Sequence record: PQ843332.1
Length of the DNA: 64,000 nucleotides
Direction: 5' to 3' (one strand)
DNA from: Escherichia phage P-GXEC-L2P5
Each line of letters opens with the position of its first letter. Position 1 is the stretch's first letter. Position numbers and translations under genes: made by a program. The notes beneath the pieces are model-generated. The model was not told the origin of the DNA. It ran no database searches and saw only the letters and a list, made by a program, of their open reading frames with translations. Below are positions 1-63,526 of the stretch, piece by piece.

Positions 1-66
1 TTTAAAGATATCAAGCTAATGGAGCGAATCGCGCTTGATGAAATGGCGCAACAAAACCCCGCATAA
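1..66 (+). CDS. tail assembly chaperone, C-terminal end of the frameshifted gpT-like extension (partial; 5' end outside window)
   Basis: Frame 1 reads FKDIKLMERIALDEMAQQNPA-stop; the same peptide ends the T-frame extension after the G-like chaperone at 49363-49432. Confidence 0.5.
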   Translation, partial: FKDIKLMERIALDEMAQQNPA

Positions 67-3401: not shown

Positions 3402-3435
3402 TAAAATGGCCCTCACTACAACGTGGGGGCTTTTT

Positions 3436-4897: not shown

Positions 4898-4899
4898 TC

Positions 4900-5640: not shown

Positions 5641-6248
5641 CCACATTTAAATTATACGGCGTCTTAGGGCGTCGTTTTGGTAAAGTGCACAAGCTGGATT
5701 GCTTCACCCCGGGCGAAGGTATCACAGGCCTATGCGTGAAGCTGCCTGGCTTACAGGACTTTCTAATGTCGGCCCACCTGGAAAATATTATGTTCAAGGT
5801 GCGCAAAGGCAATCACACAATGACCGGATACGACGAGTTAGGAGAGTTCCACGGCGACCGCGTAGTTACCATCGCACCGGTTATGACCGGCGCAAAACGC
5901 GGACTAGGCCAATTACTGGCGGGCGTAGCCATCGTGGTGGCGTCGTTCTACACCGGCGGGCTTGCTACTGCCGCTTTCGGAGCTTCCGCCGCGACCGCTG
6001 CCGCTATCGGTACGGCAACGTTTTCGTTCGGGATGTCGATGGCGCTGGGTGGCGTTATGCAATTGCTGTCACCGCAACCGAAAGGATTGCAGACACGGCA
6101 GGACGTGGATAACAAGGCGTCTTATGCGTTCGGCGGACCGGTAAACACGACCGCGCAAGGTACGGCACTTGGTGTATTATGGGGCGAGCGTGAGATCGGC
6201 GGCGCTATTATTTCCGCCGGAATCGTAACCGAGGACTTGAACGAATGA
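5631..6248 (+). CDS. tail assembly protein, lambda gpI-like
   Basis: ORF 5616-6248; N-terminal TFKLYGVLGRRFGK ubiquitin-like region, Gly/Ala-rich hydrophobic C-terminal half; overlaps gpK-like stop. Confidence 0.65.
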   Translation: MAMTTFKLYGVLGRRFGKVHKLDCFTPGEGITGLCVKLPGLQDFLMSAHLENIMFKVRKGNHTMTGYDELGEFHGDRVVTIAPVMTGAKRGLGQLLAGVAIVVASFYTGGLATAAFGASAATAAAIGTATFSFGMSMALGGVMQLLSPQPKGLQTRQDVDNKASYAFGGPVNTTAQGTALGVLWGEREIGGAIISAGIVTEDLNE

Positions 6249-6321
6249 CGATTATCTACGACGTCACAGGCCATAAAGGCGGCGGCGGCAAAGCCGGAAT
6301 CGTAACCGAGGACTTGAACGA

Positions 6322-9300
6322 ATGACGATTATCTACGACGTCACAGGCCATAAAGGCGGCGGCGGCAAACAGCACACCCCACAGGAGACGCCGGACAGCC
6401 TGCATTCGCTGGCTAAAATCCGCATCTTGCTCGCACTGGGCGAAGGTGAGTTCGAAGGCATTACCGACCCTAACGAATTACGGCAGCGCGTATACCTGGA
6501 CGGAACACCGATCCAGAACGCCGACCTGTCAGAAAACTTCCCCGGCGCGCGCGTGGAGTTCCGCCCAGGCACACAGCACCAGGACGTGATCCACGGATTT
6601 TCAGCGGTGGAAAGTGAGCAATCCGTAGGCGTAAAACTGGAAAACGGCACGCCGTGGGTGCGCCAGATTAACGACACCAGTCTTGACGCCGTGCGCATTC
6701 GAATCGGCATTCCGGCCCTGTACACCAACGAAGACAACGGCGACCTGGTGGGCGGGCGCATCGACTACAAAATCGTTGTGTATACGGACAACGCTGATCC
6801 GCGTGAGTTTACCTTCGCTGCCGTTGGTAAAACAATGTCGCTGTACGAGCGCGACCACCGCATCGAGTTACCGCCGAACGTGAATACCGGCTGGCGCGTG
6901 GAAGTTCACCGCACAACGGCAGATTCCACATCGGCGAAAGTGGTGAACGATATTCAGGTACAGTCCATCACTGAGATTATTGACGCCCGCCTGCGTTACC
7001 CGCTAACCGCGCTGTTGTTTGTGGAGTTCGACGCCAAAGCGTTCCAGAACATCCCGCGCGTGTCCATTAAGTGCAAAGGTCGCAAAGTTCTAATACCGAA
7101 CAACTACGACCCGATCAATCATACCTATGCCGGGTACTGGGACGGCACGTTTAAACGCGCATGGACGGATAACCCTGCGTGGCACTGGTACGATATTTGT
7201 ATTACTGAGCGCTTCGGCCTCGGTCGGTTAAACGCGCATGGACGGATAACCCTGCGTGGCACTGGTATGATATTTGTATTACTGAGCGCTTCGGCCTCGG
7301 TCGCCGGATCAAGCCGCAAATGCTAAACAGATATGCGCTCTACCAGATTGCGAAGCGCTGCGATCAACTGGTCAGCGACGGCAACGGCGGGCAGGAAATC
7401 CGATTTAAGAATGATATGTACATCCAGTCGCAGACCGACGCCTGGACCGTGCTTAAGGATTTAGCCGCCATCTTTGCCGGTATGACCTGGTGGGGCAACC
7501 AGATGTTGAATATTGTAAGCGATCAGCCGGTCGCAGCGGTATCGCACACTATCACCAACGCCTCGGTCATTGATGGTCGATTCGACTACGCGTCAGGGAG
7601 CCAGAAAACTCGGTATTCCACGTTCGCTGTAGCATACGGCAACCCGAAGAACCACTATGAAGATGCCATTGCTACGGGACAGCGTGTCGAACTGGTACGC
7701 CGCCATAAGATTAACCGTCTGGATATAACGGCGATCGGCTGTACGCGTGAGTCAGAAGCGCAACGCCGCGGGCACTGGGCGCTAATCTCCAACCAGCTTG
7801 ACCAGCAAGTTAGCTTTAAGGTTGGCATGGAGGGACTTTTCTTTATTCCGGGTAGTGTAGTCGCGATCGCCGATACAAACATTTCTGGCGGCTTCGAGAC
7901 ACGCGGCGGTCGCCTGTTGTCAGATCCTGGCACGCGGACTGTGCTGAACACAGACAGCGAAATCACGTTCCGCCCTGGGGATAAATTCCTGGTACGCACC
8001 GATAGCGGTAATGTGGAGACTCGCGAGATTGCCAGCGTCAACGGCAACAAGGTTACGCTAAAAACCGCACTGGACGCCGACCCGATTCCTGATCAGCCGT
8101 TTTGCGTCGATGGCAACGATATCCAGTTGCAGAAGTTCCGCATCACCGACCTGGAATATGACGACTCTACCAGCACTTTTTCAGTGCGCGGGATCGAATA
8201 CAACGATAGCAAATATGATGCCGTTGATAATGGCGCTCGCCTTGACCCAGGCATCTTTACGCAAGTTCCTGACGGCGTAATGAAGGGGCCGGAGTCCGTG
8301 ACCATTACCCCGTCGCAGATTTCATCGCAAGGCCAGCTAATCACCAACGTGGATATTGTGTTCCCGCCGGTGAAGGATGCCGTTGTTTATGAGATCCAGT
8401 GGCGACGTACCAGCTTGCAGAATATGGCGGTACAGTGGGGAAACGACTGGGTAAACATCCCCCGCACGGCATCGAACGGCGCGCACATCCCTAACGTGTT
8501 CTCCGGTAACTACCAAGCGCGCGTCCGCGCGATCGGTATGGGCGAGATTTCATCCCCGTGGGTGTCGTCCGCTATCACGCCGGTGGAAGGTCGTCTCGGC
8601 GGTCTTAACGCGCCTATCATCACCAACGCGATTTCGGGCCTTCACCAAATTTTGTGGAAGTGGAACCACAACAACGCCGCGACGGATATTTCGTACACCG
8701 AGCTTGAAGTTCGCAAGACGGGTGAAACGGAATGGAAATTCCTAACCAACGTCCCATACCCGGGGTCGGAGTATGCGCAAACGTCGCTGGAGTTCGGCAT
8801 CTATCAGCAGTTGCGCGCCCGTGTAGCGGATAAAATCGGCAACCTGTCGGACTGGTCGGCCCCGTTTGAAGGGCAGGTGAGCAGCAGTTGCGCGCCCGTG
8901 TCGCGGATAAAATCGGCAACCTGTCGGACTGGTCGGCCCCGTTTGAAGGGCAGGTGAGTGACAATGTTGACGAGTACATGAAGGGGCTGGACGACGAGTT
9001 CTTGACTTCTGAGGACGGTAAACGCTTCCAGGAAGCGATCGACACCATGCCGCAAGGCATTTATGAGGCTATGCTCACCGACGCACAGCAATTGTTTAAC
9101 GCCCGCGCCGAGTACAAGGGGATTTATGCAGAAATCTCGGTCGCGTATAACGTGGCGGCAGATGCCCACCAGGCGGTAGCGCAACTGGAAACGTTGATCG
9201 GTACTCGCCTTGACGATGCGGAAGCGGCAATCCACACGTTGCAGACCGCGCAAAGCACGCACGAGCAAGCGTTCGCCCAGTACCAACAAACTGTTGCCGC

Positions 9301-9826
9301 TAAGTTCGGTCAGCAGTCCGCCGCGATCGAGCAGAAGATGACGTCCTCGTTTAACCACTCCGGTGGTAGCGCCACATACAGCCTTAAGGCGGGTGTGACG
9401 TATAACGGTACTTACTATGATGCGGGTATGCAGCTTTCCGTTGTAACGTCGGGCAGCGCGGTTAAATCTCGTATCGCGTTCAAAGCCGACCAGTTCTACA
9501 TCATGCACCCATCTAATGGGTCGCTTTCGTCCGCGTTCATCGTCGACGGAGGACAGGTGTACATCGACACGGCACGAATCAAGAACGCGTCCATTAACTT
9601 CGCACAGATCACGGACACGCTGCGGTCTAATAACTTCGTTGCGGGGTCGTCAGGGTGGAACCTGCCTAAATCGGGTAACGCGGAATTGAACAACGTAACG
9701 GTCCGCGGCAACCTGTACGCCACATCGGGTAACTTCGGGTTTTCTGGTGGGACCGTGACGATCGACAAGACAGGCGTAAACGTGCCGTTACCTGGCGGGG
9801 GGAGGGTGAAAGTCGGGACGTGGTAA
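6322..9826 (+). CDS. host specificity / tail tip protein, lambda gpJ-like (frame broken by duplications near 7151-7304 and 8806-8959; start codon duplicated at 6245 and 6322)
   Basis: ORFs 6322-7326, 7320-8957 and 8888-9826 are contiguous, about 1,100 aa after removing duplicates; conserved gpJ-like N-terminus MTIIYDVTGHKGGGGKQHTP; position after gpI-like gene. Confidence 0.8.
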
Positions 9827-9831
9827 ATGCG

Positions 9832-9853
9832 AAGGGGCCATCCGGCCCCTTTT
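9832..9853 (+). terminator. rho-independent terminator (aaggggccatccggcccctttt), usable on both strands
   Basis: GC stem, short loop, T-run; sits between convergent genes. Confidence 0.6.
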
Positions 9854-10818
9854 CAATACATATTCGGGATGACGAGTAGCGGGGTGGGTACGGCAATATT
9901 TTTACCTGGCATCTGGAATTGCTGCCGTGAGTAGTTGCCGATGACGCGGTTTTTAGCGACGCGCACATTATTACCCGCCATGCGTATTCCGTTCATGCGG
10001 ACGTGGTTATAGCCCCCGTTGTTCTGAATCAGCGCGCCGGTGTATGAAAGCTGGATCAGGCTGTTTCCTATATTCTGGTCGCCCGTGCCGATGTTAATCG
10101 TGCGGTCATATACGAACGGCTTGTTCACCGTCGAGAACGTGACCTGATTCTGGTTATTTGTCATAGTGATCCCGGCCCCTGGCGTGGGTGGTGTATTGTT
10201 GAATATGACAAGGTCCATGTCCACCGAAGCCGCCACATCGTCGATGCCACCATAGGCCGCGTTGCGGACGATAATACTGCCACCATCGAAGCCTACTGAT
10301 ACGTTGCCGTCATCCCAGCGGGCGAACGGGACACCGCTAACGGGCAAGGCCATACTACCGTTGACGCGTACTCGCTGTGCGTATCGGCAGGTCATTAGCT
10401 TAGACACGTTGGATATGGCGGTGAAGTCCGTCGAGTTCTCCACCAGTAAGCCCGCGTTGCGTGAACCAACCGGCAGCACTTCCATTATGACGCCAGCCCA
10501 TTGTGGTAAGCCAGAGTACGCGCCATACGCATCCTCCCCGCGCAGGGTGATACCACTATTCCCGTTGCGGGTAACAGACGTAACGTAAAACGGGTCGGGA
10601 ATTACCAGGGTCTGGTCGAATACCTCAATCACTTCTACCGGGCGAGTGAGCGCGACGACGACCTGCGACCCCTCCGTAAGCGGGGTGTTAATGGTTAGCG
10701 TCTTGTTGGACTGTGCCCGCTGGTTAAAGCTGGTGCAGTATGCTGGCGCGCGAAGCCCTGCGGTGATCTCCATGCGCGGTCTTCCGTCGTTGTAGTCGAT
10801 AAGTATTCCAGCACCCAT
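9853..10818 (-). CDS. hypothetical protein, Asn/Gly-rich with beta-helix-like repeats; co-transcribed with upstream lipoprotein
   Basis: Intact 324 aa ORF; start overlaps lipoprotein stop; repeated N-x-x-(V/I)-x-N segments; absent from second genome copy. Confidence 0.45.
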   Translation of the reverse strand: MGAGILIDYNDGRPRMEITAGLRAPAYCTSFNQRAQSNKTLTINTPLTEGSQVVVALTRPVEVIEVFDQTLVIPDPFYVTSVTRNGNSGITLRGEDAYGAYSGLPQWAGVIMEVLPVGSRNAGLLVENSTDFTAISNVSKLMTCRYAQRVRVNGSMALPVSGVPFARWDDGNVSVGFDGGSIIVRNAAYGGIDDVAASVDMDLVIFNNTPPTPGAGITMTNNQNQVTFSTVNKPFVYDRTINIGTGDQNIGNSLIQLSYTGALIQNNGGYNHVRMNGIRMAGNNVRVAKNRVIGNYSRQQFQMPGKNIAVPTPLLVIPNMY

Positions 10819-10820
10819 TA

Positions 10821-11042
10821 TTACCACTCCCGTGATTTAACTGATACTGTGCCTGAGAAATTGCCGTCGCTATCTGAAGACAGCCCAGTGAATCGCATGT
10901 CCACATCTCCTGCCGGGACTTTTTGCCCATCAACGTAGCGCAACATGCAGCTACCGTACGCAACCGTAATGCACTCGCCGTTGTTGCGTTCTACGGCGCA
11001 ACCGGATAAAAGAACCGCACAAATCATAATTAAAGTTTTCAT
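10821..11042 (-). CDS. small lipoprotein, candidate Llp/Cor-like superinfection exclusion protein
   Basis: Signal peptide MKTLIMICAVLLSGC with lipobox LSGC; AGGGGA RBS; lies between gpJ-like gene and tail fibre; mature part differs completely from paralogue at 61449-61667. Confidence 0.5.
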   Translation of the reverse strand: MKTLIMICAVLLSGCAVERNNGECITVAYGSCMLRYVDGQKVPAGDVDMRFTGLSSDSDGNFSGTVSVKSREW

Positions 11043-11122
11043 GGTATCATCCCCTATATTTGGTTGAGTTTTAGTATTACACCGCTCAACCAGGATTGCA
11101 ACCAATTTAAGAGGATTTAGCT

Positions 11123-12901
11123 ATGGCAGCGGGTACGCTATCCGTAACGAACAATAGCAAGGCTGTAGTAGGGGTCGGCACAACGTTTACCGCGTTTAAA
11201 GCGGGCGACTTCTTAACGCTGGTGGTAGGACAAGTCCCATACACCGTGGCAATCGCGTCCATTGAAAGCGCAACCGCGCTCACGCTGGTACTGCCGTTCG
11301 ACGGCCCAACGGCAACCGGCCTTGCGTGGGATGGCGTTAAGCGCGATACCATGTCGCTGGCAACGATGGGCGTTACCGTACAGGCCCAAAAAGCATTGCG
11401 CTTGATGATTGCAGATGAAAACAACTGGCGTGCAATCTTCGGCGATGCTGAAGAAATCACAGTCACGCTCCCGAACGGGCAAGTTATGCAGGGTATGTCG
11501 TGGGGCTACCTGTCGTCTTTGCTGAAGGAAGTAGACCCCGTTGAGATGCGCAACCTGCAACAACAAGCCGCCGCATCGGAAGCAGCCGCGCAAGGATTCC
11601 GTAACGAGGCGGAAGGCTTCAAGAACGACGCCAACACCATCAAGACGCAGACCAGCCAACTTAAGGCAGATACGCAGGCTATCAAGGACCAAACGAATCA
11701 GATCAAGACTGACACTGGCGTTATTCGTGATGAAGCCAATACCGCGAAGGAGGACGCGCAATCTGCCCGCACTGCCGCGCAAGGATTTCGCAATGAGGCT
11801 GAACAATTCGCTAATAGTGTTAACCCGGAAAACCTACTTGCGAAGGCCAACAACTTAAGTGATGTTGCGGATGTGGCTGTGGCGCGCGAAAACATTGGCG
11901 TAGACCGCCTAACGCAAAACATAACCAGCGGCGAAACACAAATCAGGACTGCGGCGAAGAATAAATGGATCTTCGTTAAGGAAAATGGCGACTGGGGCGG
12001 GTGGGATAATGCCAACAATAAAGCCATGCCGCTGCCGATTGCATTCGGTGGTACGGGGCGCGGCGATAACGTCGCCGAGTTCCGCCAATTCAAATCAAAC
12101 GGCGACACCCAAGATGGGTTAATCATTACGCAGAACGGGTCTGGATTTGGTGGTGTATGCTGGGGGGATTCCGCCAATAAAGTACGCTGGCGCATGGGGA
12201 TTAACGACGCCGCGGGTAATTTTAAGTTGCACTCATATGACGCGTCGGGCGCGTACCGCGATACCTTTATGGAGATCTCTGGATCGGGGATAAGCGGCAT
12301 GGTGTGTCATCGAGATATCATGGTCCGCCCAACAGAGACAGTTCCAGTGTTGTCTTTCGTCCTAAACAACGGAAAAGCTACCGTCCCGGCTGGTAACGTC
12401 CGCACGATGTGGGATACGGTTAACATCAATAGTAATATAATCTATAAATATTTTGAGAAGGGAGACGGCACTGGCTTCACAGTCAACTGGCCCTCATCTG
12501 GTGGTGTTATTGCCCTCCAGGGTACATCAGGAAGGGACTTTAAGAAAGATATTACCGACGCGGACGTTACAGAAGCGGTTGCACGCATTGAACAAATGCG
12601 CATGGTGCGCTACGTGTATAAGGACGATGTGCAGGAGCGCGTCCGCTTCGGCATCATTGCCGAGGAAGCAGAAGAGATTGCGCCTCAATACATCAAACAC
12701 CGTGAGGAGACGTACGATGTGGAGGTGGACCCCGAGACTAACGCCATCGTCGGGGGTAAGACGCGCGACCGTCCGTCGGTAGACGTTAACCCTATCGTGA
12801 TGGACTTGATGGGGTGCGCACAATATGCGATCGCTGAGTGTAAACGCCTGGCGGCGGAAGTGGAGGATTTGAAAGCCGAGATCGCGGCGTTGAAGAAATA
12901 A
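11123..12901 (+). CDS. tail fibre protein with C-terminal intramolecular chaperone (peptidase S74-like) domain
   Basis: Intact 592 aa ORF; coiled repeat region; C-terminal ...RFGIIAEEAEEIAPQYIK...DLKAEIAALKK resembles the auto-cleaving chaperone domain of endosialidase and L-shaped tail fibres. Confidence 0.7.
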   Translation: MAAGTLSVTNNSKAVVGVGTTFTAFKAGDFLTLVVGQVPYTVAIASIESATALTLVLPFDGPTATGLAWDGVKRDTMSLATMGVTVQAQKALRLMIADENNWRAIFGDAEEITVTLPNGQVMQGMSWGYLSSLLKEVDPVEMRNLQQQAAASEAAAQGFRNEAEGFKNDANTIKTQTSQLKADTQAIKDQTNQIKTDTGVIRDEANTAKEDAQSARTAAQGFRNEAEQFANSVNPENLLAKANNLSDVADVAVARENIGVDRLTQNITSGETQIRTAAKNKWIFVKENGDWGGWDNANNKAMPLPIAFGGTGRGDNVAEFRQFKSNGDTQDGLIITQNGSGFGGVCWGDSANKVRWRMGINDAAGNFKLHSYDASGAYRDTFMEISGSGISGMVCHRDIMVRPTETVPVLSFVLNNGKATVPAGNVRTMWDTVNINSNIIYKYFEKGDGTGFTVNWPSSGGVIALQGTSGRDFKKDITDADVTEAVARIEQMRMVRYVYKDDVQERVRFGIIAEEAEEIAPQYIKHREETYDVEVDPETNAIVGGKTRDRPSVDVNPIVMDLMGCAQYAIAECKRLAAEVEDLKAEIAALKK

Positions 12902-12905
12902 ATAG

Positions 12906-12930
12906 AAGGGGCCATGCGGCCCCTTTTTTA
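12906..12930 (+). terminator. rho-independent terminator (aaggggccatgcggcccctttttta), bidirectional
   Basis: Perfect GC stem plus T-run between convergent genes. Confidence 0.65.
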
Positions 12931-13580
12931 GTTTGAGTTTTCCCAGTCCATTTTGCGCCGCACCAGATGGCTTTCGTAATATTCCTTGCCCTCAACTTCC
13001 ACTAAGGGCCAATCGTTAACAATCACGTACGGTTCCGCAATATCCTCAATCACGCCGTGCGCGCTTTGCGGCCCTAACGACACGCCCACCAGGATAACAC
13101 CGGCAACACGACGGGCAAGATACTCACGAGCGCAGCGCGCCTCTACCAGTCCGCGACGGATGCCGCTGGTGGCCTTAACTTCGTAGGTCCATACGGCATC
13201 GATCACATGCTCGCGGAAGTCGGGACCGGACTTCACCTTGCGCTTGCCGACCATGATGATATCGCCGCGACGGCATCGATCACATGCTCGCGGAAGTCGG
13301 GACCGGACTTCACCTTGCGCTTGCCGACCATGATGATATCGCCGCGGTCAATGGTATTGGCGCTAAACAGGCCGGTACGCATGAGCAAGCCTTGAGGAAT
13401 ACAACTGCGCCCTCCTGCCTGCCCTTCAAGATACATGCCTGCAAACATCTCGCCCAGCACACCGACCAGTCGGCTTTGCTTGCACGCGTCAGACTTTAAG
13501 CGCCACTGGTCAAACTCGATGCTTGCTATCATTGCCGCCAGGTGGAATTGTTTACCGGATATTTCATATTCGCCGTACAT
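12928..13580 (-). CDS. hypothetical protein, possible PD-(D/E)xK-type nuclease fold (frame broken by duplication near 13195-13345)
   Basis: ORFs 13233-13580 and 12928-13254 are contiguous; GDII...YEVK resembles D...(E)xK; homologue at 63627-64000. Confidence 0.3.
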
Positions 13581-53152: not shown

Positions 53153-53186
53153 TAAAATGGCCCTCACTACAACGTGGGGGCTTTTT

Positions 53187-54879: not shown

Positions 54880-54881
54880 CC

Positions 54882-55622: not shown

Positions 55623-56384
55623 CCACATTTAAATTATACGGCGTTTTAGGACGTCGATTCGGTAAAGTGCATAAGCTGGACTGCTTCACTCCGGGCGAGG
55701 GTATCACCGGCCTGTGCGTGAAGTTACCCGGCTTACAGGACTTTCTAATGTCGGCCCACCTGGACAATATGATGTTCAAGGTGCGCAAAGGCGACCACAC
55801 GATGACCGGCTATGATGAGCTGGGCGAGTTCCACGGCAACCGCGTATGATGTTCAAGGTGCGCAAAGGCGACCACACGATGACCGGCTATGATGAGCTGG
55901 GTGAGTTCCACGGCAACCGCGTCGTTACCATCGCGCCGGTTATGACGGGCGCAAAAAGAGGGTTGGGACAATTGCTGGCGGGTGTCGCGATCGTAGTGGC
56001 GTCGTTCTATACGGGCGGACTTGCTACTGCCGCTTTCGGGGCTTCGGCTGCAACCGCTGCCGCTATCGGGACGGCGACGTTTTCGTTCGGGATGTCGATG
56101 GCGCTGGGTGGCGTTATGCAATTGCTGTCGCCACAACCGAAAGGATTGCAGACAAGGCAGGACGTGGATAACAAAGCGTCGTACGCGTTCGGCGGGCCTT
56201 GCTGTCGCCACAACCGAAAGGATTGCAGACAAGGCAGGACGTGGATAACAAAGCGTCGTATGCGTTCGGAGGCCCAGTAAACACTACCGCGCAAGGCACG
56301 GCGCTTGGTGTATTATGGGGCGAGCGTGAGATCGGCGGCGCTATTATTTCAGCCGGAATCGTAACCGAGGACTTGAACGAATGA
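55613..56384 (+). CDS. tail assembly protein, gpI-like, second copy (frame broken by duplications near 55790-55880 and 56150-56260)
   Basis: Collinear with 5631-6248. Confidence 0.6.
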
Positions 56385-59300
56385 CGATTATCTACGACGT
56401 CACAGGGCATAAAGGCGGCGGCGGCAAACAGCACACCCCGCAGGAGACGCCCGATAGCCTGCATTCGCTGGCTAAAATCCGCATCTTGCTTGCGCTGGGG
56501 GAAGGGGAATTCGAAAGTATTACCAGCGCCAGCGAATTGCGGCAGCGTGTATATCTGGACGGAACACCGATCCAGAACGCGGACTTGTCCGAAAACTTCC
56601 CCGGCGCGCGTGTGGAGTTCCGCCCCGGAACACAGCACCAGGATGTGATCCACGGATTTTCAGCGGTGGAAAGTGAGCAATCTGTCGGCGTAAAACTGGA
56701 AAACGGCACGCCGTGGGTGCGCCAGATTAACGACACCAGCTTGGACGCCGTGCGCATTCGCATCGGCATTCCGGCACTGTACACAAACGAAGATAATGGC
56801 GACCTGGTGGGCGGGCGCATCGACTATAAGATCGTTGTGTATACGGATAACGCCGACCCGCGTGAGTTCAGATTCGCCGCCGTTGGTAAAACAATGTCGA
56901 CTATAAGATCGTTGTGTATACGGATAACGCCGACCCGCGTGAGTTCAGATTCGCCGCCGTTGGTAAAACAATGTCGCTGTATGAGCGCGACCACCGCATA
57001 GAATTACCTCCGAACGTTAACACCGGCTGGCGCGTGGAGGTGCACCGCATAACGGCAGACTCCACATCGGCGAAAGTGGTTAATGATATCCGGGTGCAGT
57101 CCATCACTGAGATTATTGACGCCCGCCTGCGTTACCCGCTAACCGCGCTGTTGTTTGTGGAGTTCGACGCCAAAGCGTTCCAGAACATCCCGCGCGTGCC
57201 CGCCTGCGTTACCCGCTAACCGCGCTGTTGTTTGTGGAGTTCGACGCCAAAGCGTTCCAGAACATCCCGCGCGTGTCCATCAAGTGCAAAGGCCGCAAAG
57301 TTCTAATACCGAACAACTACGACCCGATCAATCATACCTATGCCGGGTACTGGGACGGCACGTTTAAACGCGCATGGACGGATAACCCTGCGTGGCACTG
57401 GTACGATATTTGTATTACTGAGCGCTTCGGCCTCGGTCGGCGTATCAAACCGCAAATGCTAAACCGATACGCGCTCTGTACGATATTTGTATTACTGAGC
57501 GCTTCGGCCTCGGTCGGCGTATCAAACCGCAAATGTTAAACCGGTACGCGCTCTACCAGATTGCGCAGCGCTGCGATCAGTTGGTCAGCGACGGCAACGG
57601 TGGTCGAGAAATCCGCTTTAAGAATGATATGTACATTCAGTCACAGACGGATGCCTGGACCGTGCTTAAGGATTTAGCCGCCATCTTCGCTGGGATGACC
57701 TGGTGGGGAAACCAAATGTTGAATATCGTCAGTGACCAACCGGTCGCAGCAGTGTCGCACACTATCACCAACGCCTCGGTTATTGATGGCCGATTCGACT
57801 ACGCATCAGTGACCAACCGGTCGCAGCAGTGTCGCACACTATCACCAACGCCTCGGTTATTGATGGTCGATTCGACTACGCGTCCGGTAGCCAGAAAACT
57901 CGGTATTCCACATTCGCGGTAGCATACGGCAACCCGAAGAACCACTATGAAGATGCCATCGCAACGGGGCAACGTGTCGAACTGGTACGCCGCCATAAGA
58001 TTAACCGTCTTGATATAACGGCGATCGGCTGTACGCGTGAGTCAGAAGCGCAACGACGTGGGCACTGGGCGCTAATCTCCAACCAGCTTGACCAGCAAGT
58101 TAGCTTTAAGGTGGGCATGGAGGGACTTTTCTTTATTCCTGGTAGCGTAGTCGCGATCGCCGATACAAACATTTCTGGCGGCTTCGAGACACGCGGCGGT
58201 CGCCTGTTGTCGGACCCTGGCACGCGTACCGTGCTTAACACGGACAGCGAAATCACATTCCGCCCAGGTGATAAATTCCTGGTACGCACCGATAGTGGTA
58301 ATGTAGAGACTCGCGAGATCGCCAGCGTCAACGGCAACAAGGTTACGCTAAAAACCGCACTGGACGCCGACCCGATTCCTGATCAGCCGTTTTGCGTCGA
58401 TGGCAACGATATCCAGTTGCAGAAGTTCCGCATCACCGACCTGGAATATGACGACTCTACGAGCACTTTCTCGGTGCGCGGGATTGAATACAACGATAGC
58501 AAGTATGATGCCGTTGATAATGGCGCTCGCCTTGATCCTGGTATCTTCACGCAAGTGCCCGACGGGGTAATGAAGGGGCCGGAATCCGTGACCATCACCC
58601 CGTCGCAGATTTCATCGCAAGGACAGCTAATCACCAACGTGGATATTGTTTTCGGCCGGAATCCGTGACCATCACCCCGTCGCAGATTTCATCGCAAGGA
58701 CAGCTAATCACCAACGTGGATATTGTATTCCCTCCGGTGAAGGATGCCGTGGTGTATGAAATCCAGTGGAGGCGTACCAGCCTTCAGAATATGGAAATCC
58801 AGTGGGGTAACGACTGGGTGAATATCCCACGCACGGCGTCGAACGGCGCGCACATCCCTAACGTGTTCTCCGGTAACTACCAGGCACGCGTCCGCGCGAT
58901 CGGTATGGGCGAGATTTCATCTCCGTGGGTGTCGTCCGCCATCACGCCGGTGGAAGGTCGTCTCGGTGGGCTTAACGCACCAATCATCACCAACGCTATT
59001 TCGGGCCTTCACCAGATCTTGTGGAAGTGGAACCACAACAACGCCGCTACTGATATCTCGTACACCGAGCTTGAAGTGCGCAAGACCGGTGAGACTGAAT
59101 GGAAATTCCTTACCAACGTCCCATATCCGGGGGCGGAGTATGCGCAAACATCGCTGGAGTTCGGAATTTACCAGCAGTTGCGCGCCCGTGTAGCGGATAA
59201 AATCGGCAACCTGTCGGACTGGTCGGCCCCGTTTGAAGGGCAGGTGAGTGACAAAGTTGACGAGTACATGAAGGGGCTTGATGACGAGTTCTTGACTTCC

Positions 59301-60339
59301 GAGGATGGTAAACGCTTCCAGGAAGCAATCAAGTTGACGAGTACATGAAGGGGCTTGATGACGAGTTCTTGACTTCCGAGGATGGTAAACACTTCCAGGA
59401 AGCTATTAACACGATCCCGCAAGGCATTTATGAGTCAATGCTCACCGACGCCCAGCAGCTATTCAACGCCCGCGCCGAGTACAAAGGGATTTATGCGGAA
59501 ATCAAGGTCGCGTATAACGTGGCGGCGGACGCCCACAAGGCGGTCGCTCAACTGGAGACGTTGATCGGCACGCGACTTGATGACGCGGAAGCTGCGATCC
59601 ACACGTTGCAGACGGCGCAGACGCTCAACTGGAGACGTTGATCGGCACGCGACTTGATGACGCGGAAGCTGCGATCCGCACGTTGCAGACCGCGCAGAGC
59701 ACACAGGAACAAGCGTTCGCCCAGTACCAGCAAACTGTTGCCGCTAAGTTCGGGGAACAGGAAGCCGCCATCCAGCAGGTACAAACGGCAACCGCAGACG
59801 TGGCGGGAGCGCTGGCGGAATATAAGACCCAGGTCGCTACACAGTTCGGTCAGCAGTCCGCCGCTATCGAGCAGAAGATGACGTCCTCGTTTAACCACTC
59901 TGGTGGTAGCGCCACGTATAGCCTTAAGGCTGGCGTGACATATAACGGGACTTATTATGATGCGGGTATGCAGCTCTCCGTCGTGACGTCTGGCAACGCG
60001 GTTAAATCGCGTATTGCGTTCAAGGCGGACCAGTTCTACATCATGCATCCGTCCAATGGGACGCTGTCGTCTGCGTTTATTGTGGACGGTGGCGCGGTGT
60101 ATATCGACACGGCACGCATCAAGAACGCGTCCATCAACTTCGCGCAGATAACAGACACGCTGCAATCGAATAACTACGACGGCAGCACGCGCGGCTGGCG
60201 CTTAGGGAAAGATGGAACGTTTATCAACCTGGGCACCGGTAGCGGCGGCGGGATGAAACAGACGAACACAAGAATCAGCGTGAAGGACGGAAACGGCGTT
60301 CTCCGCGTGCAGATTGGTGAGCTTACTGGTAGCTGGTAG
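56381..60339 (+). CDS. host specificity protein, gpJ-like, second copy with divergent C-terminal domain (fragmented by at least seven duplications)
   Basis: N-terminal about 1,000 aa collinear with 6322-9826; extra repeat block and a different last ~60 aa. Confidence 0.75.
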
Positions 60340-60375
60340 TATAGGGGCTTCGGCCCCTTTTTAACGAGGTTATTT

Positions 60376-60678
60376 ATGGCATTCGGTATCGCAACGTGGG
60401 ACGCGCAAGGACGCCCAAACAACTACGGCATTAAACCGGTAAGCGTGATCGGAAGGATTCATCTTGCGGAAGGACAAAAATCAGGCGCATGGTCATTCCC
60501 TGTACCGGCGGGGATGAAGGTCGGATACGTGGTCGCACTGGATAAAGGCGCGGTCGGGCCAGGACGCAGAATATCTGCCAGCGGGAACACTATCACGGTT
60601 TCCGCGGCAAGTGCAGTAGGTGGCGGGGTTTACTCCGCATCTGAATGTGACGTTATTGTTTTTGTGGAGCGAGCATAA
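60376..60678 (+). CDS. hypothetical protein specific to second copy
   Basis: Intact 100 aa ORF replacing the minus-strand cassette found after gpJ in copy 1. Confidence 0.4.
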   Translation: MAFGIATWDAQGRPNNYGIKPVSVIGRIHLAEGQKSGAWSFPVPAGMKVGYVVALDKGAVGPGRRISASGNTITVSAASAVGGGVYSASECDVIVFVERA

Positions 60679-61429
60679 TGGCTAATTACGGCGCGTTGAT
60701 TGACTTACCAAACGGCAACCCGTTTATCACGCCAGAATCGACGCCGTTTTGTCTCTTCCGCCGTGTGGTTGTTGGGTCTTCGGCTAACGGCACTGCGCAG
60801 TCGGCGGCTGCCGATATTAATTTGGGTGGTGACTACCCTGCAATAGCGTTTGTTAAAACTACGCACACCGCCCAGCCGACCGTCGTAGGGTCTTCTCGCG
60901 TTGGTAATGTGGTGAAGGTGAGCGCCAGCAATCCATTCGGGCAGGGCTTCACGATGACGGCTTACATCTTTGCTATATTCCCACAGACCCTTCCGCGGTG
61001 GGGCTTCGCTATTTGGGATAAGACGGGGAAGCTAGTGCTTACTAATGAGAGTCGCGTACTAAGTCCCTTCCGCGGTGGGGCTTCGCTATTTGGGATAAGA
61101 CGGGGAAGCTAGTGCTTACTAATGAGAGTCGCGTACTGAGCGATTTAGTTACCGTCGGGTCGCCTGGCGCTAACGGGGGGATTAACATTGATCAGACGCT
61201 AAACGGCAGCTACGCCGTCGCACCGGGAATATTGGGGTCTACGCTGATCCGGTTTTTTGTGCAGGGCCAGCCGCAGGTAATATCGGTAACGGCGTACACG
61301 GGGGCCAGATTTGATGGGTCGCGAACTCGTATATCGGCAGCGTCGTCGGGGAACGCCACGGGGGATGTGGTGGGGTATACTAACAACGGCAACGCGATTA
61401 TGGCGATTAACACTGCCAATTATGATTGA
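60678..61429 (+). CDS. hypothetical protein specific to second copy (duplication near 61030-61130)
   Basis: ORFs 60678-61112 and 61112-61429; ATGA-type overlap with upstream gene. Confidence 0.4.
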
Positions 61430-61430
61430 A

Positions 61431-61456
61431 GAAAGCCCCGAAAGGGGCTTATTTGC
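61431..61456 (+). terminator. bidirectional rho-independent terminator (aaagccccgaaaggggctt)
   Basis: Perfect stem between convergent genes. Confidence 0.55.
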
Positions 61457-61667
61457 AGGTTGTGCTTTTGAAATGGTCTACAGACACGTACTGGAAGCTA
61501 AACGGATAACCCGCCCTTAGCATTTTATGCCCGGAGAAGTCCGCAACACCATACACAGGTACCGCATAATCCATGCCGCTATTCTGGTATGTGGCGTCGC
61601 AGACTTTAGCGGGCATGTTGGCACAACCGGACAAAAGAACCGCACAAATCATAATTAAAGTTTTCAT
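61449..61667 (-). CDS. small lipoprotein, second-copy variant with unrelated mature domain
   Basis: Same signal peptide MKTLIMICAVLLSGC as 10821-11042; mature part ANMPAKVCDATYQNSG... is unrelated. Confidence 0.5.
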   Translation of the reverse strand: MKTLIMICAVLLSGCANMPAKVCDATYQNSGMDYAVPVYGVADFSGHKMLRAGYPFSFQYVSVDHFKSTTCK

Positions 61668-61747
61668 GGTATCATCTCCTATATTTGGTCGAGTTTCAGT
61701 ATTACACCGCTCAACCAGGATTGCAACCAATTTATGAGGATTTAGCT

Positions 61748-63526
61748 ATGGCAGCGGGCACACTATCCGTAACGAATAACAGCAAGGCGGTTGTAGGGGT
61801 CGGCACAACGTTTACCTCGTTTAACGCTGGCGACTTCTTAACGCTGGTGGTAGGACAAGTCCCCTACACCGTAGCAATCGCGTCCATTGAAAGCGAAACC
61901 GCGCTTACGCTGGTGTTGCCGTTCGACGGCCCAACGGCAACCGGCCTCGCGTGGGATGGCGTTAAGCGCGATACCATGTCACTGGCGACGATGGGTGTAA
62001 CCGTACAGGCACAGAAAGCATTGCGCTTGATGATTGCAGATGAAAACAACTGGCGTGCAATCTTCGGCGACGCTGAAGAAATCACCGTGACGCTGCCTAA
62101 CGGGCAGGTAATGCAGGGTATGTCATGGGGCTACCTGTCGCAGTTGATGAAACAGATCGACCCCGTTGAGATGCTAAACCTGCAACAACAAGCCGCCGCA
62201 TCGGAAGCAGCCGCGCAAGGATACCGCGACCAGGCCGAAGGCATTAAAACCGAGACGGCAGGCATCCGCGACGACACCAGGTTGATTAATGCTGATACGC
62301 TGGCGATCCGCAACGACACCGATGCCATCAGGACGAATACCAACCAGATTAAATCAGATACGCAGGCCATTAAGGACCAGACGAACCAGATCAAGACGGA
62401 CACCGGCGTTATTCGCGACGAAGCCAATACCGCGAAGACGGACGCGCAATCCGCCCGCGATGCTGCGCTGGGATACCGGAACGAGGCCGAACAGTTCAAG
62501 AATGAGATCGACCCGTCGAAACTTCTGGCAAAGGCCAACAACCTTAGCGACGTTGCCGACCCCGCGGCAGCGCGCGACCACTTAGGCATCGGGCCTGACG
62601 ACACCCTTAACCTTGGTGGCCTGGTAACGTCCGGCAGTATCTCCGCGGGCCGCAACACATGGGATGGGTCTAACTGGGGGAGCCAGGGACTTCTCGCCTC
62701 ATTAGTGGTCCTATACCCGGACGGAAGCTCAGCCCCAGGCTTATACGTGCGAAAATCCAACGGCGACAGCGGATATGCGGCGGGATGGTTGTATAACGAG
62801 AACAGTATCAGTTGGGCTACTAACGCGCGTATTGCGGGCTTTCAGTTCCGGTCCCCTAAAGGCGCGATGGGGTATAACCAGCTATGGTCAGAGGCTGTGG
62901 TGCGTGCGGACGACTTCATGGCACAGAATGGCGCGGAAAACTATAAGTCGTTAATCGCGGGGGCCGCTACAACGCAAGGTCACGGATACTCGGGCGGTGT
63001 CTCGTTCGGGATAATGACAACTGGCATAAACAACTGGCCCCGGGCGCAGATCTCGATCGGCACAGCAGACCGTGACGCCGCTGGGAATATGGCTTCGCAG
63101 ATGCACTTCCGCTTTAATGAATATGGGCAGATTTCTTACACAGGGCCACTGGGGACGGGGTCGTTCCAGCAAGTACCTGCGTCGGATCGCAACCTGAAGC
63201 ATGACATTGCCGATGACGCAAGCAGCACCGCCTACGACAATATCAAGGCTTTGCGGTTCCGCACGTTCGTATTCAACAACGATGAACAGGAACGGCAGCG
63301 TCGCGGTATTATTGCGCAGGAAGCGGAAGAAATCGACCCGCTGTATGTGAAGCACCGCGTGTATAACAATCACGAATTAAATGGGCCTCTGGTGCACCAG
63401 CTTGAACTGGATACGACACCGCTGTTACTCGACACTATGCGAGCGTTGCAGGATACGATTAAGCAGGTGGAGGATTTGAAGGCGGAGATCGCAGCGATGA
63501 AGCAGGCGGAAGAGTTGAAGAAATAA
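61748..63526 (+). CDS. tail fibre protein, second copy, with different distal domain and same type of C-terminal chaperone
   Basis: N-terminal about 300 aa collinear with 11123-12901; distal domain non-homologous; C-terminal ...RRGIIAQEAEEIDPLYVK...DLKAEIAAMKQAEELKK. Confidence 0.7.
   Translation: MAAGTLSVTNNSKAVVGVGTTFTSFNAGDFLTLVVGQVPYTVAIASIESETALTLVLPFDGPTATGLAWDGVKRDTMSLATMGVTVQAQKALRLMIADENNWRAIFGDAEEITVTLPNGQVMQGMSWGYLSQLMKQIDPVEMLNLQQQAAASEAAAQGYRDQAEGIKTETAGIRDDTRLINADTLAIRNDTDAIRTNTNQIKSDTQAIKDQTNQIKTDTGVIRDEANTAKTDAQSARDAALGYRNEAEQFKNEIDPSKLLAKANNLSDVADPAAARDHLGIGPDDTLNLGGLVTSGSISAGRNTWDGSNWGSQGLLASLVVLYPDGSSAPGLYVRKSNGDSGYAAGWLYNENSISWATNARIAGFQFRSPKGAMGYNQLWSEAVVRADDFMAQNGAENYKSLIAGAATTQGHGYSGGVSFGIMTTGINNWPRAQISIGTADRDAAGNMASQMHFRFNEYGQISYTGPLGTGSFQQVPASDRNLKHDIADDASSTAYDNIKALRFRTFVFNNDEQERQRRGIIAQEAEEIDPLYVKHRVYNNHELNGPLVHQLELDTTPLLLDTMRALQDTIKQVEDLKAEIAAMKQAEELKK

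What the first reader, a model, noticed from the sequence alone, without database searches (positions are those of the whole stretch)
9330..9826. gpJ-like C-terminal domain differs between copies
The last ~60 aa of copy 1 (...RSNNFVAGSSGWNLPKSGNAELNNVTVRGNLYATSGNFGFSGGTVTIDKTGVNVPLPGGGRVKVGTW) differ from copy 2 (...QSNNYDGSTRGWRLGKDGTFINLGTGSGGGMKQTNTRISVKDGNGVLRVQIGELTGSW). Copy 2 also has an extra helical repeat block upstream. The gpJ C-terminus is the receptor-binding region in lambda-like phages, so the two copies probably use different receptors.
Basis: partly seen in the sequence, partly recalled or inferred. Interest (0 to 1): 0.45.

Follow-up and report, generated by a model that had tools for sequence, protein, structure and literature searches.

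The report
Swapped phage receptor module; broken assembly
The two tail-tip genes do end differently, but the difference is one edge of a well-known swappable cassette in T1-like coliphages whose separate downstream genes bind the receptor (LptD in one copy, FhuA in the other), and the "two copies" are two phage strains strung together by a faulty assembly.

Summary
The two J-like tail-tip proteins are about 98% identical until ...ITDTL. They then end in unrelated tips of 67 aa (window 9623-9826) and 58 aa (60163-60339).

The tip is not a lambda-style receptor-binding domain. It is the 5' edge of a 1.4-kb swapped cassette: J tip, receptor-binding protein gene(s), and the mature part of a superinfection-exclusion lipoprotein.
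- **Copy 1:** carries a DUF6453 protein 97% identical to the Oekolampad RBP solved on LptDE (PDB 9RPT), plus its lipoprotein.
- **Copy 2:** carries the 100-aa + 224-aa + Cor locus of FhuA-dependent phages (97% to Teewinot; same family as Bas15 and T1).

So different receptors are very likely, LptD versus FhuA. In 34 loci from about ten phage groups, tip type matched downstream RBP family without exception. This fits the tip being the RBP docking adaptor, which is inferred and not demonstrated.

- **32-aa block:** the "extra" block is ancestral, and copy 1 carries a deletion.
- **Source sequence:** the window is not one genome with two copies. It is 1.29 laps of a Dhillonvirus map stitched from at least three genotypes, with 78 artefactual 77-bp tandem duplications that frameshift most genes.

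All of this biology is already published. Interest is low.

The parts
6322..9826 (+). Copy 1 J-like tail-tip / central fibre gene. It encodes 1116 aa once the artefactual duplications 7148-7226|7225-7303 and 8805-8881|8882-8958 are collapsed. A further duplication, 6216-6292|6293-6369, duplicates the start codon.
   Evidence: Pfam FNIII-A_GpJ E 5.9e-40, Phage-tail_3 E 1.7e-17, Phage_Tail_Tip E 3.6e-39. Reading frame restored. Region is 98.2% identical to Sodalis phage SO-1 and 94.1% to Oekolampad.
9623..9826 (+). Copy 1 variable J tip: 67 codons (RSNNF...KVGTW) plus the stop codon. This tip type accompanies DUF6453 RBPs.
   Evidence: Coordinates. Divergence from copy 2 shown. This tip type co-occurs with DUF6453 in all 17 loci that carry DUF6453.
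9834..9853 (.). GC-rich hairpin GGGGCC-ATCC-GGCCCC followed by TTTT, between the convergent J and RBP genes. It is a probable bidirectional terminator.
   Evidence: Read directly from the sequence. The terminator scan did not call it because there are only 4 T. The homologous position in phage Chapo is annotated as a bidirectional terminator.
9853..10818 (-). Copy 1 receptor-binding protein, DUF6453, 321 aa from MGAGIL. It is LptD-specific by homology.
   Evidence: Pfam PF20051, 405 bits against a cutoff of 25. Full-length phmmer match to PDB 9RPT/9RPW/9RQI chain C, E 8.6e-208, about 97% identity. That chain is the Oekolampad RBP solved bound to LptDE.
10821..11042 (-). Copy 1 superinfection-exclusion lipoprotein, 73 aa, with lipobox LLSGC. 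Only the signal peptide (10995-11042) is shared with copy 2.
   Evidence: Pfam PF24052 Phage_lipoprotein E 1.5e-21. The mature part is 98% identical to bas18_0026, which is SE_Oeko. SE_Oeko is 35% identical to Rtp45, whose complex with LptDE is solved.
11123..12901 (+). Copy 1 lateral tail fibre, 592 aa. The N-terminal ~265 aa are shared with copy 2 and the distal part is diverged.
   Evidence: Peptidase_S74 chaperone domain. BLASTP against copy 2 gives 50% identity overall, with a conserved N-terminus.
56381..60339 (+). Copy 2 J-like tail-tip gene. It encodes 1139 aa after seven artefactual 77-bp duplications are collapsed.
   Evidence: It is 95.4% identical over its full length to the J protein of Bas15 PaulFeyerabend, also 1139 aa. 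The region is about 97% identical to phages Lust, Pride and Gluttony.
59545..59698 (+). Artefactual 77-bp tandem duplication inside J2 (59545-59621 | 59622-59698, 2 mismatches). It repeats 'IGTRLDDAEAAI.TLQTAQ' and shifts the frame.
   Evidence: Removing it restores the ORF. Reference phages have a single copy.
59749..59844 (+). 32-aa coiled-coil segment FGEQEAAIQQVQTATADVAGALAEYKTQVATQ. It is present in copy 2 and deleted in copy 1.
   Evidence: It is present in 15 of 16 related J proteins of all tip types, and absent only from copy 1 and slur05.
60163..60339 (+). Copy 2 variable J tip: 58 codons (QSNNYDG...ELTGSW) plus the stop codon. This tip type accompanies the FhuA-type RBP locus.
   Evidence: This tip type co-occurs with the 100-aa + 224-aa locus in all 17 loci that carry that locus.
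60376..60678 (+). Copy 2 100-aa protein of the FhuA-type RBP locus. It is an accessory or second RBP chain.
60678..61429 (+). Copy 2 224-aa protein, the probable FhuA-binding RBP. It is interrupted by the artefactual duplication 60985-61060 | 61062-61137.
61449..61667 (-). Copy 2 Cor superinfection-exclusion lipoprotein, 72 aa. Its signal peptide is shared with the copy 1 lipoprotein and its mature part is unrelated.
   Evidence: phrog_1119 Cor E 2.7e-27. It is 85% identical to bas15_0027. Gluttony gp59 is annotated as Cor.
61748..63526 (+). Copy 2 lateral tail fibre, 592 aa from MAAGTLSV.

Best explanation
**What the window is.** It holds two allelic versions of the host-recognition cassette of Dhillonvirus (SO-1-like, T1-related) virulent coliphages.

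**What the cassette contains.** It spans about 1.4 kb. It consists of the last 58-67 codons of the J-like tail-tip gene, the gene or genes for a separately encoded receptor-binding protein, and the mature part of a small superinfection-exclusion lipoprotein. Its flanks are conserved: '...NASINFAQITDTL(Q/R)SNN' in J on one side, and the lipoprotein signal peptide plus the lateral-fibre 5' end on the other. These flanks are the places where the two alleles realign, and I infer that homologous recombination between phages exchanges the cassette there.

**Copy 1.** It encodes the single-chain DUF6453 RBP that plugs into the LptDE lipopolysaccharide translocon, plus an Rtp45-like lipoprotein that blocks LptD from the periplasm.

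**Copy 2.** It encodes the 100-aa + 224-aa pair and Cor, which is the FhuA-specific set found in T1, Bas15, Teewinot and JLBYU60.

**Role of the J tip.** It most likely does not touch the receptor. It is the cognate docking site that holds the RBP non-covalently at the end of the trimeric central fibre, as the pb4-pb5 arrangement does in T5. That is why it has to be swapped together with the RBP.

**Shown versus inferred.**
- Shown here: cassette anatomy, boundaries, family assignments, and near-identity to experimentally characterised phages.
- Shown in the literature: RBP_Oeko binds LptDE, Rtp45 binds LptDE, and Bas15, Teewinot, JLBYU60 and T1 depend on FhuA.
- Inferred: physical docking of the RBP on the J tip, and which of the two copy-2 proteins contacts FhuA.
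For: **Boundaries.** One search gives 9635/60175 and 10995/61620. One search gives the protein alignment.

**Copy 1.**
- DUF6453 scores 405 bits and Phage_lipoprotein E 1.5e-21.
- The RBP matches PDB 9RPT chain C at E 8.6e-208, about 97% identity. The cryo-EM and LptD resistance mutants are described in bioRxiv 10.1101/2025.07.07.663478.
- The lipoprotein is 98% identical to SE_Oeko.
- BASEL lists LptD as the receptor of the Dhillonvirus Bas14 TheodorHerzl (S5 table). It names Oekolampad (Bas18) among the seven small siphoviruses whose receptor was traced to lptD mutations. The cryo-EM paper states that Maffei et al. identified LptD as Oekolampad's receptor.

**Copy 2.**
- Cor has E 2.7e-27, with phrog_557 and phrog_425 for the other two proteins.
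- The 224-aa protein is 97% identical to Teewinot's. Teewinot and JLBYU60 are FhuA-dependent Dhillonviruses (PMC10373560), and JLBYU60 is 94% identical over this region.
- Bas15, with FhuA determined experimentally (S5 table), has the same architecture. J is 95.4% identical, the tip about 88%, and the three locus proteins 69%, 54% and 85%.
- The T1 homologue is 52.6% identical.

**Co-variation of tip and RBP family.**
- 17 of 17 loci with DUF6453 have the '...YA.sG.F.F.G...T..I...G[IV].V.L..GG[RK][VI]..G.[WF]' tip.
- 17 of 17 loci with the 100+224 locus have the '...MK.[TD]N..I[ST]V.D..G..R.Q.G..TG.[WF]' tip.
- There are no discordant loci. Fisher p is 9e-10, but the loci are not phylogenetically independent.
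- The loci span Dhillonvirus, Tunavirus, Rogunavirus, Seuratvirus, Webervirus, Hanrivervirus, Warwickvirus, Eclunavirus and temperate phages.
- Same-genus pairs with different RBP families have J bodies 85-96% identical but tips about 30% identical (T1 vs Chapo or Sfin-6; F20 vs K2069PH1).
- Cross-group pairs with the same family have bodies 27-40% identical but tips 45-68% identical.

**Literature agreement.**
- Relatives with 185-191-aa J extensions give no hit to either RBP family.
- BASEL (PMC8594841) describes the same locus logic.
- bioRxiv 10.64898/2026.04.02.716166 independently flags the GpJ C-terminal tip as specificity-associated.
- The tail-proximal part of RBP_Oeko is disordered when isolated, as expected for a surface that needs a partner.
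Against: - No experiment or structure shows an RBP bound to a J tip. In the T1 virion cryo-EM the C-terminal 350 residues of the J homologue were unresolved (PMC11945409).
- Co-variation could partly reflect tight physical linkage. The tip is adjacent to the RBP gene, and the conserved ITDTLQSNN stretch is a convenient crossover point.
- At finer scale the coupling is loose. The Chapo RBP is 77.5% identical to the copy-1 RBP, yet its tip is only 52% identical and resembles tips that accompany 32-44% identical RBPs.
- Receptor use of these exact sequences has not been tested.
- The sequence comes from a chimeric, damaged assembly. The copy-1 cassette lies within one uninterrupted segment (8882-13269). 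The copy-2 cassette crosses only one junction and matches real phages at 99-100%.
Confidence: 0.78

Rival explanations
1. The J C-terminus is itself the receptor-binding domain, as in lambda J binding LamB. On this view the two different tips bind two different receptors directly, and the downstream genes are accessory or moron genes.
For: - Lambda J and some relatives do bind the receptor through the J C-terminus. BASEL infers this for TolC-targeting phages, and the 2026 preprint for LamB, TolC and NupG.
- Tip type correlates perfectly with predicted receptor class.
- Lewis et al. analysed tail-fibre proteins as the RBPs of FhuA-dependent Dhillonviruses.
Against: - The tips are only 58-67 aa.
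- The downstream DUF6453 protein of the copy-1 type was purified alone and solved bound deep inside LptDE, with a 1700 A2 interface. LptD point mutants that block infection also block its binding.
- Relatives credited with direct J binding have 185-191-aa extensions and give no hit to either RBP family.
Confidence: 0.07
2. This is pure hitch-hiking. The tip has no specific partnership with the RBP. It differs only because the nearest conserved crossover site lies upstream of it, so it is carried along whenever the RBP locus is exchanged. Any tip would hold any RBP, or the RBP attaches elsewhere.
For: - The tip is immediately adjacent to the RBP gene, and homology breaks exactly at a highly conserved motif.
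- Within the DUF6453 family, tip subtype and RBP subtype are not strictly matched, as Chapo and PLYYY01 show.
- No binding data exist.
Against: - There are no discordant loci among 34, across about ten phage groups with J bodies down to 27% identity. Within each type the last 40 residues stay 42-68% identical. That is conservation beyond what linkage alone predicts.
- An annotation-free classifier independently picked the tip as a specificity feature.
Confidence: 0.13
3. The difference is not biological at all. It would be an assembly or concatenation artefact, like the 77-bp duplications, meaning the tip sequences are chimeric junk.
For: - The window contains 78 artefactual 77-bp duplications.
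- It switches between at least three genotypes.
Against: - Both tips, each with its downstream genes, occur intact and 97-100% identical in independently sequenced phages: slur05, SO-1 and Oekolampad for one type; Gluttony, Zumzum and Teewinot for the other.
- No junction falls within 9623-11042. Only one falls within the copy-2 cassette, inside the 224-aa gene.
Confidence: 0.02

Closest known systems
LptD-type RBP locus of Dhillonvirus Oekolampad (Bas18) and Sodalis phage SO-1: bas18_0024 J, bas18_0025 RBP_Oeko (PDB 9RPT), bas18_0026 SE lipoprotein
   Same: - Gene order and orientation match: J, then the convergent RBP and lipoprotein, then the lateral fibre.
- The RBP is about 97% identical and the lipoprotein 98%.
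- The last ~37 residues of the J tip are identical.
- The region is 98.2% identical at DNA level to SO-1 and 94.1% to Oekolampad.
   Different: - Copy 1 lacks the 32-aa coiled-coil segment, as slur05 does.
- The first ~30 tip residues follow slur05 rather than Oekolampad.
- The gene is broken by assembly artefacts in this window.
FhuA-type RBP locus of T1-like and SO-1-like phages: T1; Bas15 PaulFeyerabend bas15_0025-0027; Teewinot; JLBYU60; Gluttony gp57-59 including Cor
   Same: - The architecture matches: J tip, 100-aa ORF, 224-aa ORF, then an inverted cor.
- Identity is 99-100% to Gluttony and Zumzum and 97% to Teewinot.
- It belongs to the same families as Bas15 (69%, 54%, 85%) and T1 (52.6%).
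   Different: - It belongs to the Gluttony/Teewinot sub-allele, whose 224-aa protein is only about 54% identical to the Bas15/T1 sub-allele.
- FhuA dependence is shown for Teewinot, JLBYU60, Bas15 and T1, not for this exact sequence.
Phage T5 pb5 (FhuA-binding RBP) carried on the tip of the pb4 central fibre, with the Llp lipoprotein
   Same: - The logic is the same: a monomeric RBP held non-covalently at the end of a trimeric central fibre, encoded next to a lipoprotein that disables the same receptor from the periplasm.
- The tail-proximal part of the isolated RBP is disordered in both.
   Different: - No sequence relationship was found here.
- In T5 the attachment has been seen structurally. 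For J-tip phages it has not.
Lambda J C-terminal receptor-binding domain (binds LamB)
   Same: - The N-terminal and central J architecture is shared: FNIII-A_GpJ, Phage-tail_3 and Phage_Tail_Tip.
- The position in the tail gene module is the same.
   Different: - Lambda J continues well beyond the Tail_Tip domain into a globular receptor-binding domain (established knowledge; BASEL contrasts it with dedicated RBPs).
- Here the protein stops 58-67 aa after that domain, and a separate RBP gene follows.

Membership tests
GpJ-like tail tip / central fibre protein | Pfam FNIII-A_GpJ, Phage-tail_3 and Phage_Tail_Tip domains score above their curated cut-offs. | tested here: met
   Scores are 136.8, 64.2 and 134.1 bits against cut-offs of 27, 23 and 22 (repaired J1). 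The J2 C-terminal fragment scores 123.8 bits for Phage_Tail_Tip.
GpJ-like tail tip / central fibre protein | The gene sits at the end of the tail module, after the tape-measure, M/L/K/I-like minor tail and tail assembly genes. | tested here: met
   ORF order is collinear with the annotated Oekolampad, Bas15, SO-1 and Gluttony genomes.
Lambda-type J with built-in C-terminal receptor-binding domain | A globular C-terminal domain of well over 100 aa follows the Tail_Tip domain and binds the receptor, with no separate RBP gene. | tested here: not met
   Only 58-67 aa follow the conserved domain, and RBP genes follow directly. Relatives with 185-191-aa extensions give no hit to either RBP family.
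RBP locus downstream of gpJ in Drexlerviridae, Dhillonvirus and Queuovirinae (BASEL definition) | The locus lies directly downstream of the gpJ homologue and upstream of the lateral fibre or recombination genes. | tested here: met
   Copy 1 occupies 9853-11042 and copy 2 occupies 60376-61667, each between J and the lateral tail fibre gene.
RBP locus downstream of gpJ in Drexlerviridae, Dhillonvirus and Queuovirinae (BASEL definition) | The RBP belongs to a receptor-matched family, defined as more than 30% identity and near-full coverage to an RBP of a phage with an experimentally known receptor. | tested here: met
   Copy 1 is about 97% identical over its full length to RBP_Oeko, an LptD binder. 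The copy 2 224-aa protein is 97% identical to Teewinot's, 54% to Bas15's and 52.6% to T1's, all from FhuA-dependent phages.
RBP locus downstream of gpJ in Drexlerviridae, Dhillonvirus and Queuovirinae (BASEL definition) | A cognate small superinfection-exclusion lipoprotein lies adjacent. | tested here: met
   Copy 1 has PF24052 at E 1.5e-21 and is 98% identical to SE_Oeko. Copy 2 has Cor phrog_1119 at E 2.7e-27. Both show the lipobox LLSGC.
RBP locus downstream of gpJ in Drexlerviridae, Dhillonvirus and Queuovirinae (BASEL definition) | Infection depends on the predicted receptor (LptD or FhuA). | not testable with these tools
   This needs plating on lptD loop-deletion mutants and a fhuA deletion strain. 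It is shown only for near-identical phages.
DUF6453 (PF20051) | Full-length match above the gathering threshold. | tested here: met
   405 bits against a cutoff of 25, covering residues 7-300 of the protein and profile positions 1-290 of 291.
J tip as cognate RBP docking adaptor (proposed role, not a curated family) | Tip type co-varies with RBP family independently of J-body phylogeny. | tested here: met
   34 of 34 loci are concordant. Same-genus pairs have bodies 85-96% identical but tips about 30% identical. Cross-group pairs of the same family have bodies 27-40% identical but tips 45-68% identical.
J tip as cognate RBP docking adaptor (proposed role, not a curated family) | Physical contact between the tip and the RBP. 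| not testable with these tools
   Only single-chain prediction is available here. The J C-terminus was unresolved in the T1 virion structure.

The most novel reading that the evidence does not exclude
Two points remain open beyond what is published.

**1. The tip as compatibility element.** The short J tip may be the element that decides which RBP family a central fibre can carry. If so, receptor re-targeting of these phages would need the tip co-swapped with the RBP.

Probability: 0.4. Interest if true: 0.4.

Novelty: already known. Interest (0 to 1): 0.15.

Why it matters
For phage biologists this is a textbook example, not a discovery. It shows the modular host-recognition cassette of T1-like and SO-1-like coliphages in its LptD and FhuA versions. 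Both are nearly identical to phages whose receptors are already known.

It has three practical uses:
- **Annotation:** a short divergent J C-terminus followed by small ORFs and a lipoprotein should be read as "separate RBP locus". It should not be read as "J binds the receptor".
- **Engineering:** the cassette boundaries mapped here (ITDTLQSNN in J, and the lipoprotein signal peptide) are the natural swap points. The tip should probably be moved together with the RBP.
- **Data quality:** the source contig is a chimeric, more-than-one-lap path with untrimmed 77-bp overlaps. Any inference from it about gene copy number, frameshifts or pseudogenes would be wrong.

Tried and rejected
- **Three-repeat idea.** I tested whether DUF6453 is three repeats matched by the 100-aa plus 2x~110-aa organisation of copy 2. 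hhalign gave only weak signals: DUF6453 vs 224 aa at prob 18% and E 1e-3, 224-aa halves vs 100 aa at prob 47-63%, and self-comparisons at nothing. This stays a lead only.
- **PDB sequence searches** with the 100-aa and 224-aa proteins found nothing.
- **IMG/VR scans** with the two RBPs returned only close relatives. I took wider sampling from GenBank phage hits instead.
- **STSR3.** The J C-terminus could not be extracted cleanly because of inconsistent annotation, so I left it out.
- **Promoter and terminator scans** were no better than shuffles and did not call the hairpin after J1.
- **Literature on tip/RBP swaps.** The 2026 preprint's engineering was done only in T-even phages. The T1 virion structure does not resolve the J C-terminus.
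- **A 'DUF6453' literature search** gave one irrelevant paper.
- **Prophage reading.** I considered and rejected the idea that these are two prophages in a bacterial chromosome. Every 1-kb tile of the repaired window aligns, in order, to Dhillonvirus genomes.
Full report
**1. What is in the sequence**

A self-comparison of the window shows two collinear tail-gene regions, 1-13378 and 49366-64000. They are 85-96% identical at DNA level. Homology stops at 9635 / 60175 and resumes at 10995 / 61620 (91.7%). The divergent J end is therefore the left edge of a larger non-homologous block of 1.36 kb in copy 1 and 1.44 kb in copy 2.

**2. The window is a damaged, chimeric assembly**

One search also revealed about 78 immediately adjacent tandem duplications. 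Seventy-three of them have a period of exactly 77 bp. They are spaced a median of 498 bp apart along the whole window. Seventeen are perfect copies and the rest carry one to a few mismatches (identity down to about 92%, mean 97.9%).

Because 77 is not a multiple of 3, each duplication shifts the reading frame. This is why J appears as three ORFs in copy 1 and about eight in copy 2. Deleting one copy of each duplication restores full-length genes throughout:
- tape measure protein, 880 aa
- J1, 1116 aa (6322..9826)
- J2, 1139 aa (56381..60339)
- DNA polymerase, terminase, portal and others

Reference phages have single copies at these positions.

- The first ~22 kb is 98-100% identical to Sodalis phage SO-1.
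- The next ~25 kb is only 82-94% identical to SO-1, Gluttony or Bas15, so it is a third genotype.
- The last ~10 kb is 98-100% identical to phage Gluttony.
- All tiles are collinear with one circular map, for 1.29 laps.

The two "copies" are therefore two phage genotypes joined in one path, with untrimmed 77-bp overlaps. They are not paralogues in one genome, and no bacterial DNA is present.

The copy-1 cassette lies in one uninterrupted segment (8882-13269). The copy-2 cassette crosses one junction, inside the 224-aa gene, and matches real phages at 99-100%. The alleles themselves are therefore trustworthy.

**3. The J proteins**

Repaired J1 has the FNIII-A_GpJ, Phage-tail_3 and Phage_Tail_Tip domains. 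J1 and J2 are 96-100% identical in most 50-aa windows up to ...ARIKNASINFAQITDTL. They then end in 67 versus 58 residues that align at only about 22%.

The 32-aa "extra block" of copy 2 (59749..59844) is present in 15 of 16 related J proteins, whatever their tip type. Oekolampad and SO-1, which share copy 1's tip, both have it. Only copy 1 and phage slur05 lack it. It is a deletion between short direct repeats (AAKFG.QE.AAI.Q / A.QFGQQSAAIEQ) and is irrelevant to specificity. The adjacent repeat of 'IGTRLDDAEAAI.TLQTAQ' at 59545-59698 is one of the 77-bp artefacts.

**4. What lies downstream**

*Copy 1.* A 321-aa DUF6453 protein lies on the opposite strand (9853..10818; 405 bits). A 73-aa lipoprotein follows (10821..11042; PF24052, E 1.5e-21).
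- The DUF6453 protein matches PDB 9RPT/9RPW/9RQI chain C over its full length (E 8.6e-208, about 97% identity).
- That chain is the receptor-binding protein of Dhillonvirus Oekolampad (Bas18). It was solved by cryo-EM inserted into the LptDE lipopolysaccharide translocon.
- LptD point mutants that block infection also abolish its binding (bioRxiv 10.1101/2025.07.07.663478).
- The lipoprotein is 98% identical to SE_Oeko. SE_Oeko is a 35%-identical relative of Rtp45, whose complex with the periplasmic face of LptDE explains superinfection exclusion.

*Copy 2.* It contains a 100-aa ORF (60376..60678; phrog_557), a 224-aa ORF (60678..61429; phrog_425) and an inverted 72-aa Cor lipoprotein (61449..61667; phrog_1119, E 2.7e-27).
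- The 224-aa protein is 100% identical to that of phage Zumzum and 52.6% to T1's. It is 97% identical to Teewinot's.
- Teewinot and JLBYU60 are experimentally FhuA-dependent Dhillonviruses (PMC10373560). JLBYU60 is 94% identical over this region.
- Bas15 PaulFeyerabend, with FhuA determined experimentally (BASEL S5 table), has the same architecture. Its J is 95.4% identical and also 1139 aa long. Its three locus proteins are 69%, 54% and 85% identical.
- Cor lipoproteins are the FhuA-directed exclusion proteins of T1 and phi80 (PMC9586334).

*Shared flank.* The two lipoproteins share their signal peptide and upstream DNA but not their mature parts. The swapped block is therefore exactly J tip + RBP gene(s) + mature exclusion protein.

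**5. Role of the J tip**

BASEL (PMC8594841) proposed that in Drexlerviridae, Dhillonvirus and Queuovirinae dedicated RBPs encoded downstream of gpJ are attached non-covalently to the J-like protein. It also matched locus alleles to receptors. A 2026 preprint (10.64898/2026.04.02.716166) confirmed this on 64 T1-like phages. [quoted passage not shown]

I tested the association independently in several sets of loci:
- 21 IMG/VR loci carrying close J relatives, plus the Oekolampad locus from GenBank
- Bas15
- 15 GenBank phages from Tunavirus, Rogunavirus, Seuratvirus, Webervirus, Hanrivervirus, Warwickvirus, Eclunavirus and temperate phages of E. coli, Salmonella, Cronobacter and Erwinia

Results:
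- All 17 loci with DUF6453 have the '...YA.sG.F.F.G...T..I...G[IV].V.L..GG[RK][VI]..G.[WF]' tip.
- All 17 loci with the 100+224 locus have the '...MK.[TD]N..I[ST]V.D..G..R.Q.G..TG.[WF]' tip.
- None is discordant. Fisher p is 9e-10, but the loci are not phylogenetically independent.
- Same-genus pairs with different RBP families have J bodies 85-96% identical but tips about 30% identical (T1 vs Chapo or Sfin-6; F20 vs K2069PH1).
- Cross-group pairs with the same RBP family have bodies 27-40% identical but tips 45-68% identical.
- Two relatives with long (185-191 aa) J extensions give no hit to either RBP family (L003, L018). This matches the published idea that long extensions bind the receptor directly.

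This fits a cognate docking adaptor. It remains an inference. The J C-terminus is unresolved in the T1 virion structure (PMC11945409), and no tip/RBP swap has been reported in the papers I read. Within the DUF6453 family, tip subtype and RBP subtype are also not strictly matched, as Chapo shows.

**6. Side result**

The FhuA-type and LptD-type RBPs may therefore be distant homologues, possibly a split two-gene version versus a single-chain version (100 + 224 aa versus 321 aa). The preprint calls the families unrelated. This is a lead and not a result.

**7. Verdict**

- **Observation:** confirmed, with corrected coordinates.
- **Interpretation:** partly supported. Different receptors (LptD versus FhuA) are very likely. 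They are specified by separate downstream RBPs, with the J tip as the probable adaptor.
- **"Two copies":** an assembly artefact.
- **Novelty:** the biology is already described, and both alleles are near-identical to characterised phages.
- **Interest:** low.

Noticed in passing
whole window, e.g. 1222-1295|1299-1372, 6216-6292|6293-6369, 13193-13269|13270-13346, 59545-59621|59622-59698: There are 78 immediately adjacent tandem duplications. Seventy-three have a period of exactly 77 bp, they are 92-100% identical, and they are spaced a median of about 500 bp apart. Each shifts the reading frame by +2, and removing one copy of each restores essentially every gene. This looks like sequence segments concatenated without trimming 77-bp (k-mer-sized) overlaps. 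The mismatches suggest that neighbouring segments come from different genotypes.
   Followed up: yes
window 1-64000 (repaired coordinates 1-57988): The window is 1.29 laps of a circular Dhillonvirus map built from at least three genotypes. Roughly, window 1-23400 is SO-1-like (98-100%). Positions 23400-52700 are a third genotype, 82-94% identical to SO-1, Gluttony and Bas15. Positions 52700-64000 are Gluttony-like (98-100%). There is no bacterial DNA and no integrase context, so these are virulent-phage genomes and not prophages.
   Followed up: yes
[not shown]
   Followed up: partly
window 11123-12901 vs 61748-63526: The lateral tail fibre genes of the two copies share the N-terminal ~265 aa. 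They then diverge strongly over about 200 aa before the Peptidase_S74 chaperone domain. This is a second host-range module, probably for the primary glycan receptor, and it also differs between the two genotypes.
   Followed up: partly
window 9293-9337 (copy 1) vs 59749-59844 (copy 2): A 32-aa in-frame deletion in the J coiled coil of copy 1 lies between short direct repeats. It is shared only with phage slur05 among 16 relatives. The central fibre tolerates a shortening of its coiled coil by 32 residues.
   Followed up: yes
loci L036 (SPN3UB), L040 (phiES15), L041 (F20) vs L001, L034, L038, L039: The DUF6453 RBP gene is convergent with J in Dhillonvirus, Tunavirus and Rogunavirus. It is co-directional with J in SPN3UB, phiES15 and Webervirus F20. 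The cassette has been inverted during its spread while the matching tip type was kept.
   Followed up: no
loci L017, L019-L021 (IMG/VR) and L003, L018: Other J-tip classes exist among close relatives. Short tips of 54-60 aa occur with no match to either RBP family, so other receptor cassettes are presumably present. Long tips of 185-191 aa also occur with no match to either RBP family.
   Followed up: no
window 20608-23796 (minus strand), nested ORF 21554-22312: The DNA polymerase ORF is 1062 aa in the SO-1-like part. SO-1 annotation says it contains a group I intron with an HNH endonuclease. Gluttony and Bas15 polymerases are about 760 aa, and the 1-kb tile there has no full-length match in them.
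   Followed up: no
window 1-600, 31429-31604, 49366-49883: Short related repeat regions are 84-93% identical to one another. They correspond to SO-1 'region A / region B', which are annotated as direct, inverted and palindromic repeats upstream of the tape measure gene and downstream of the primase-helicase.
   Followed up: no
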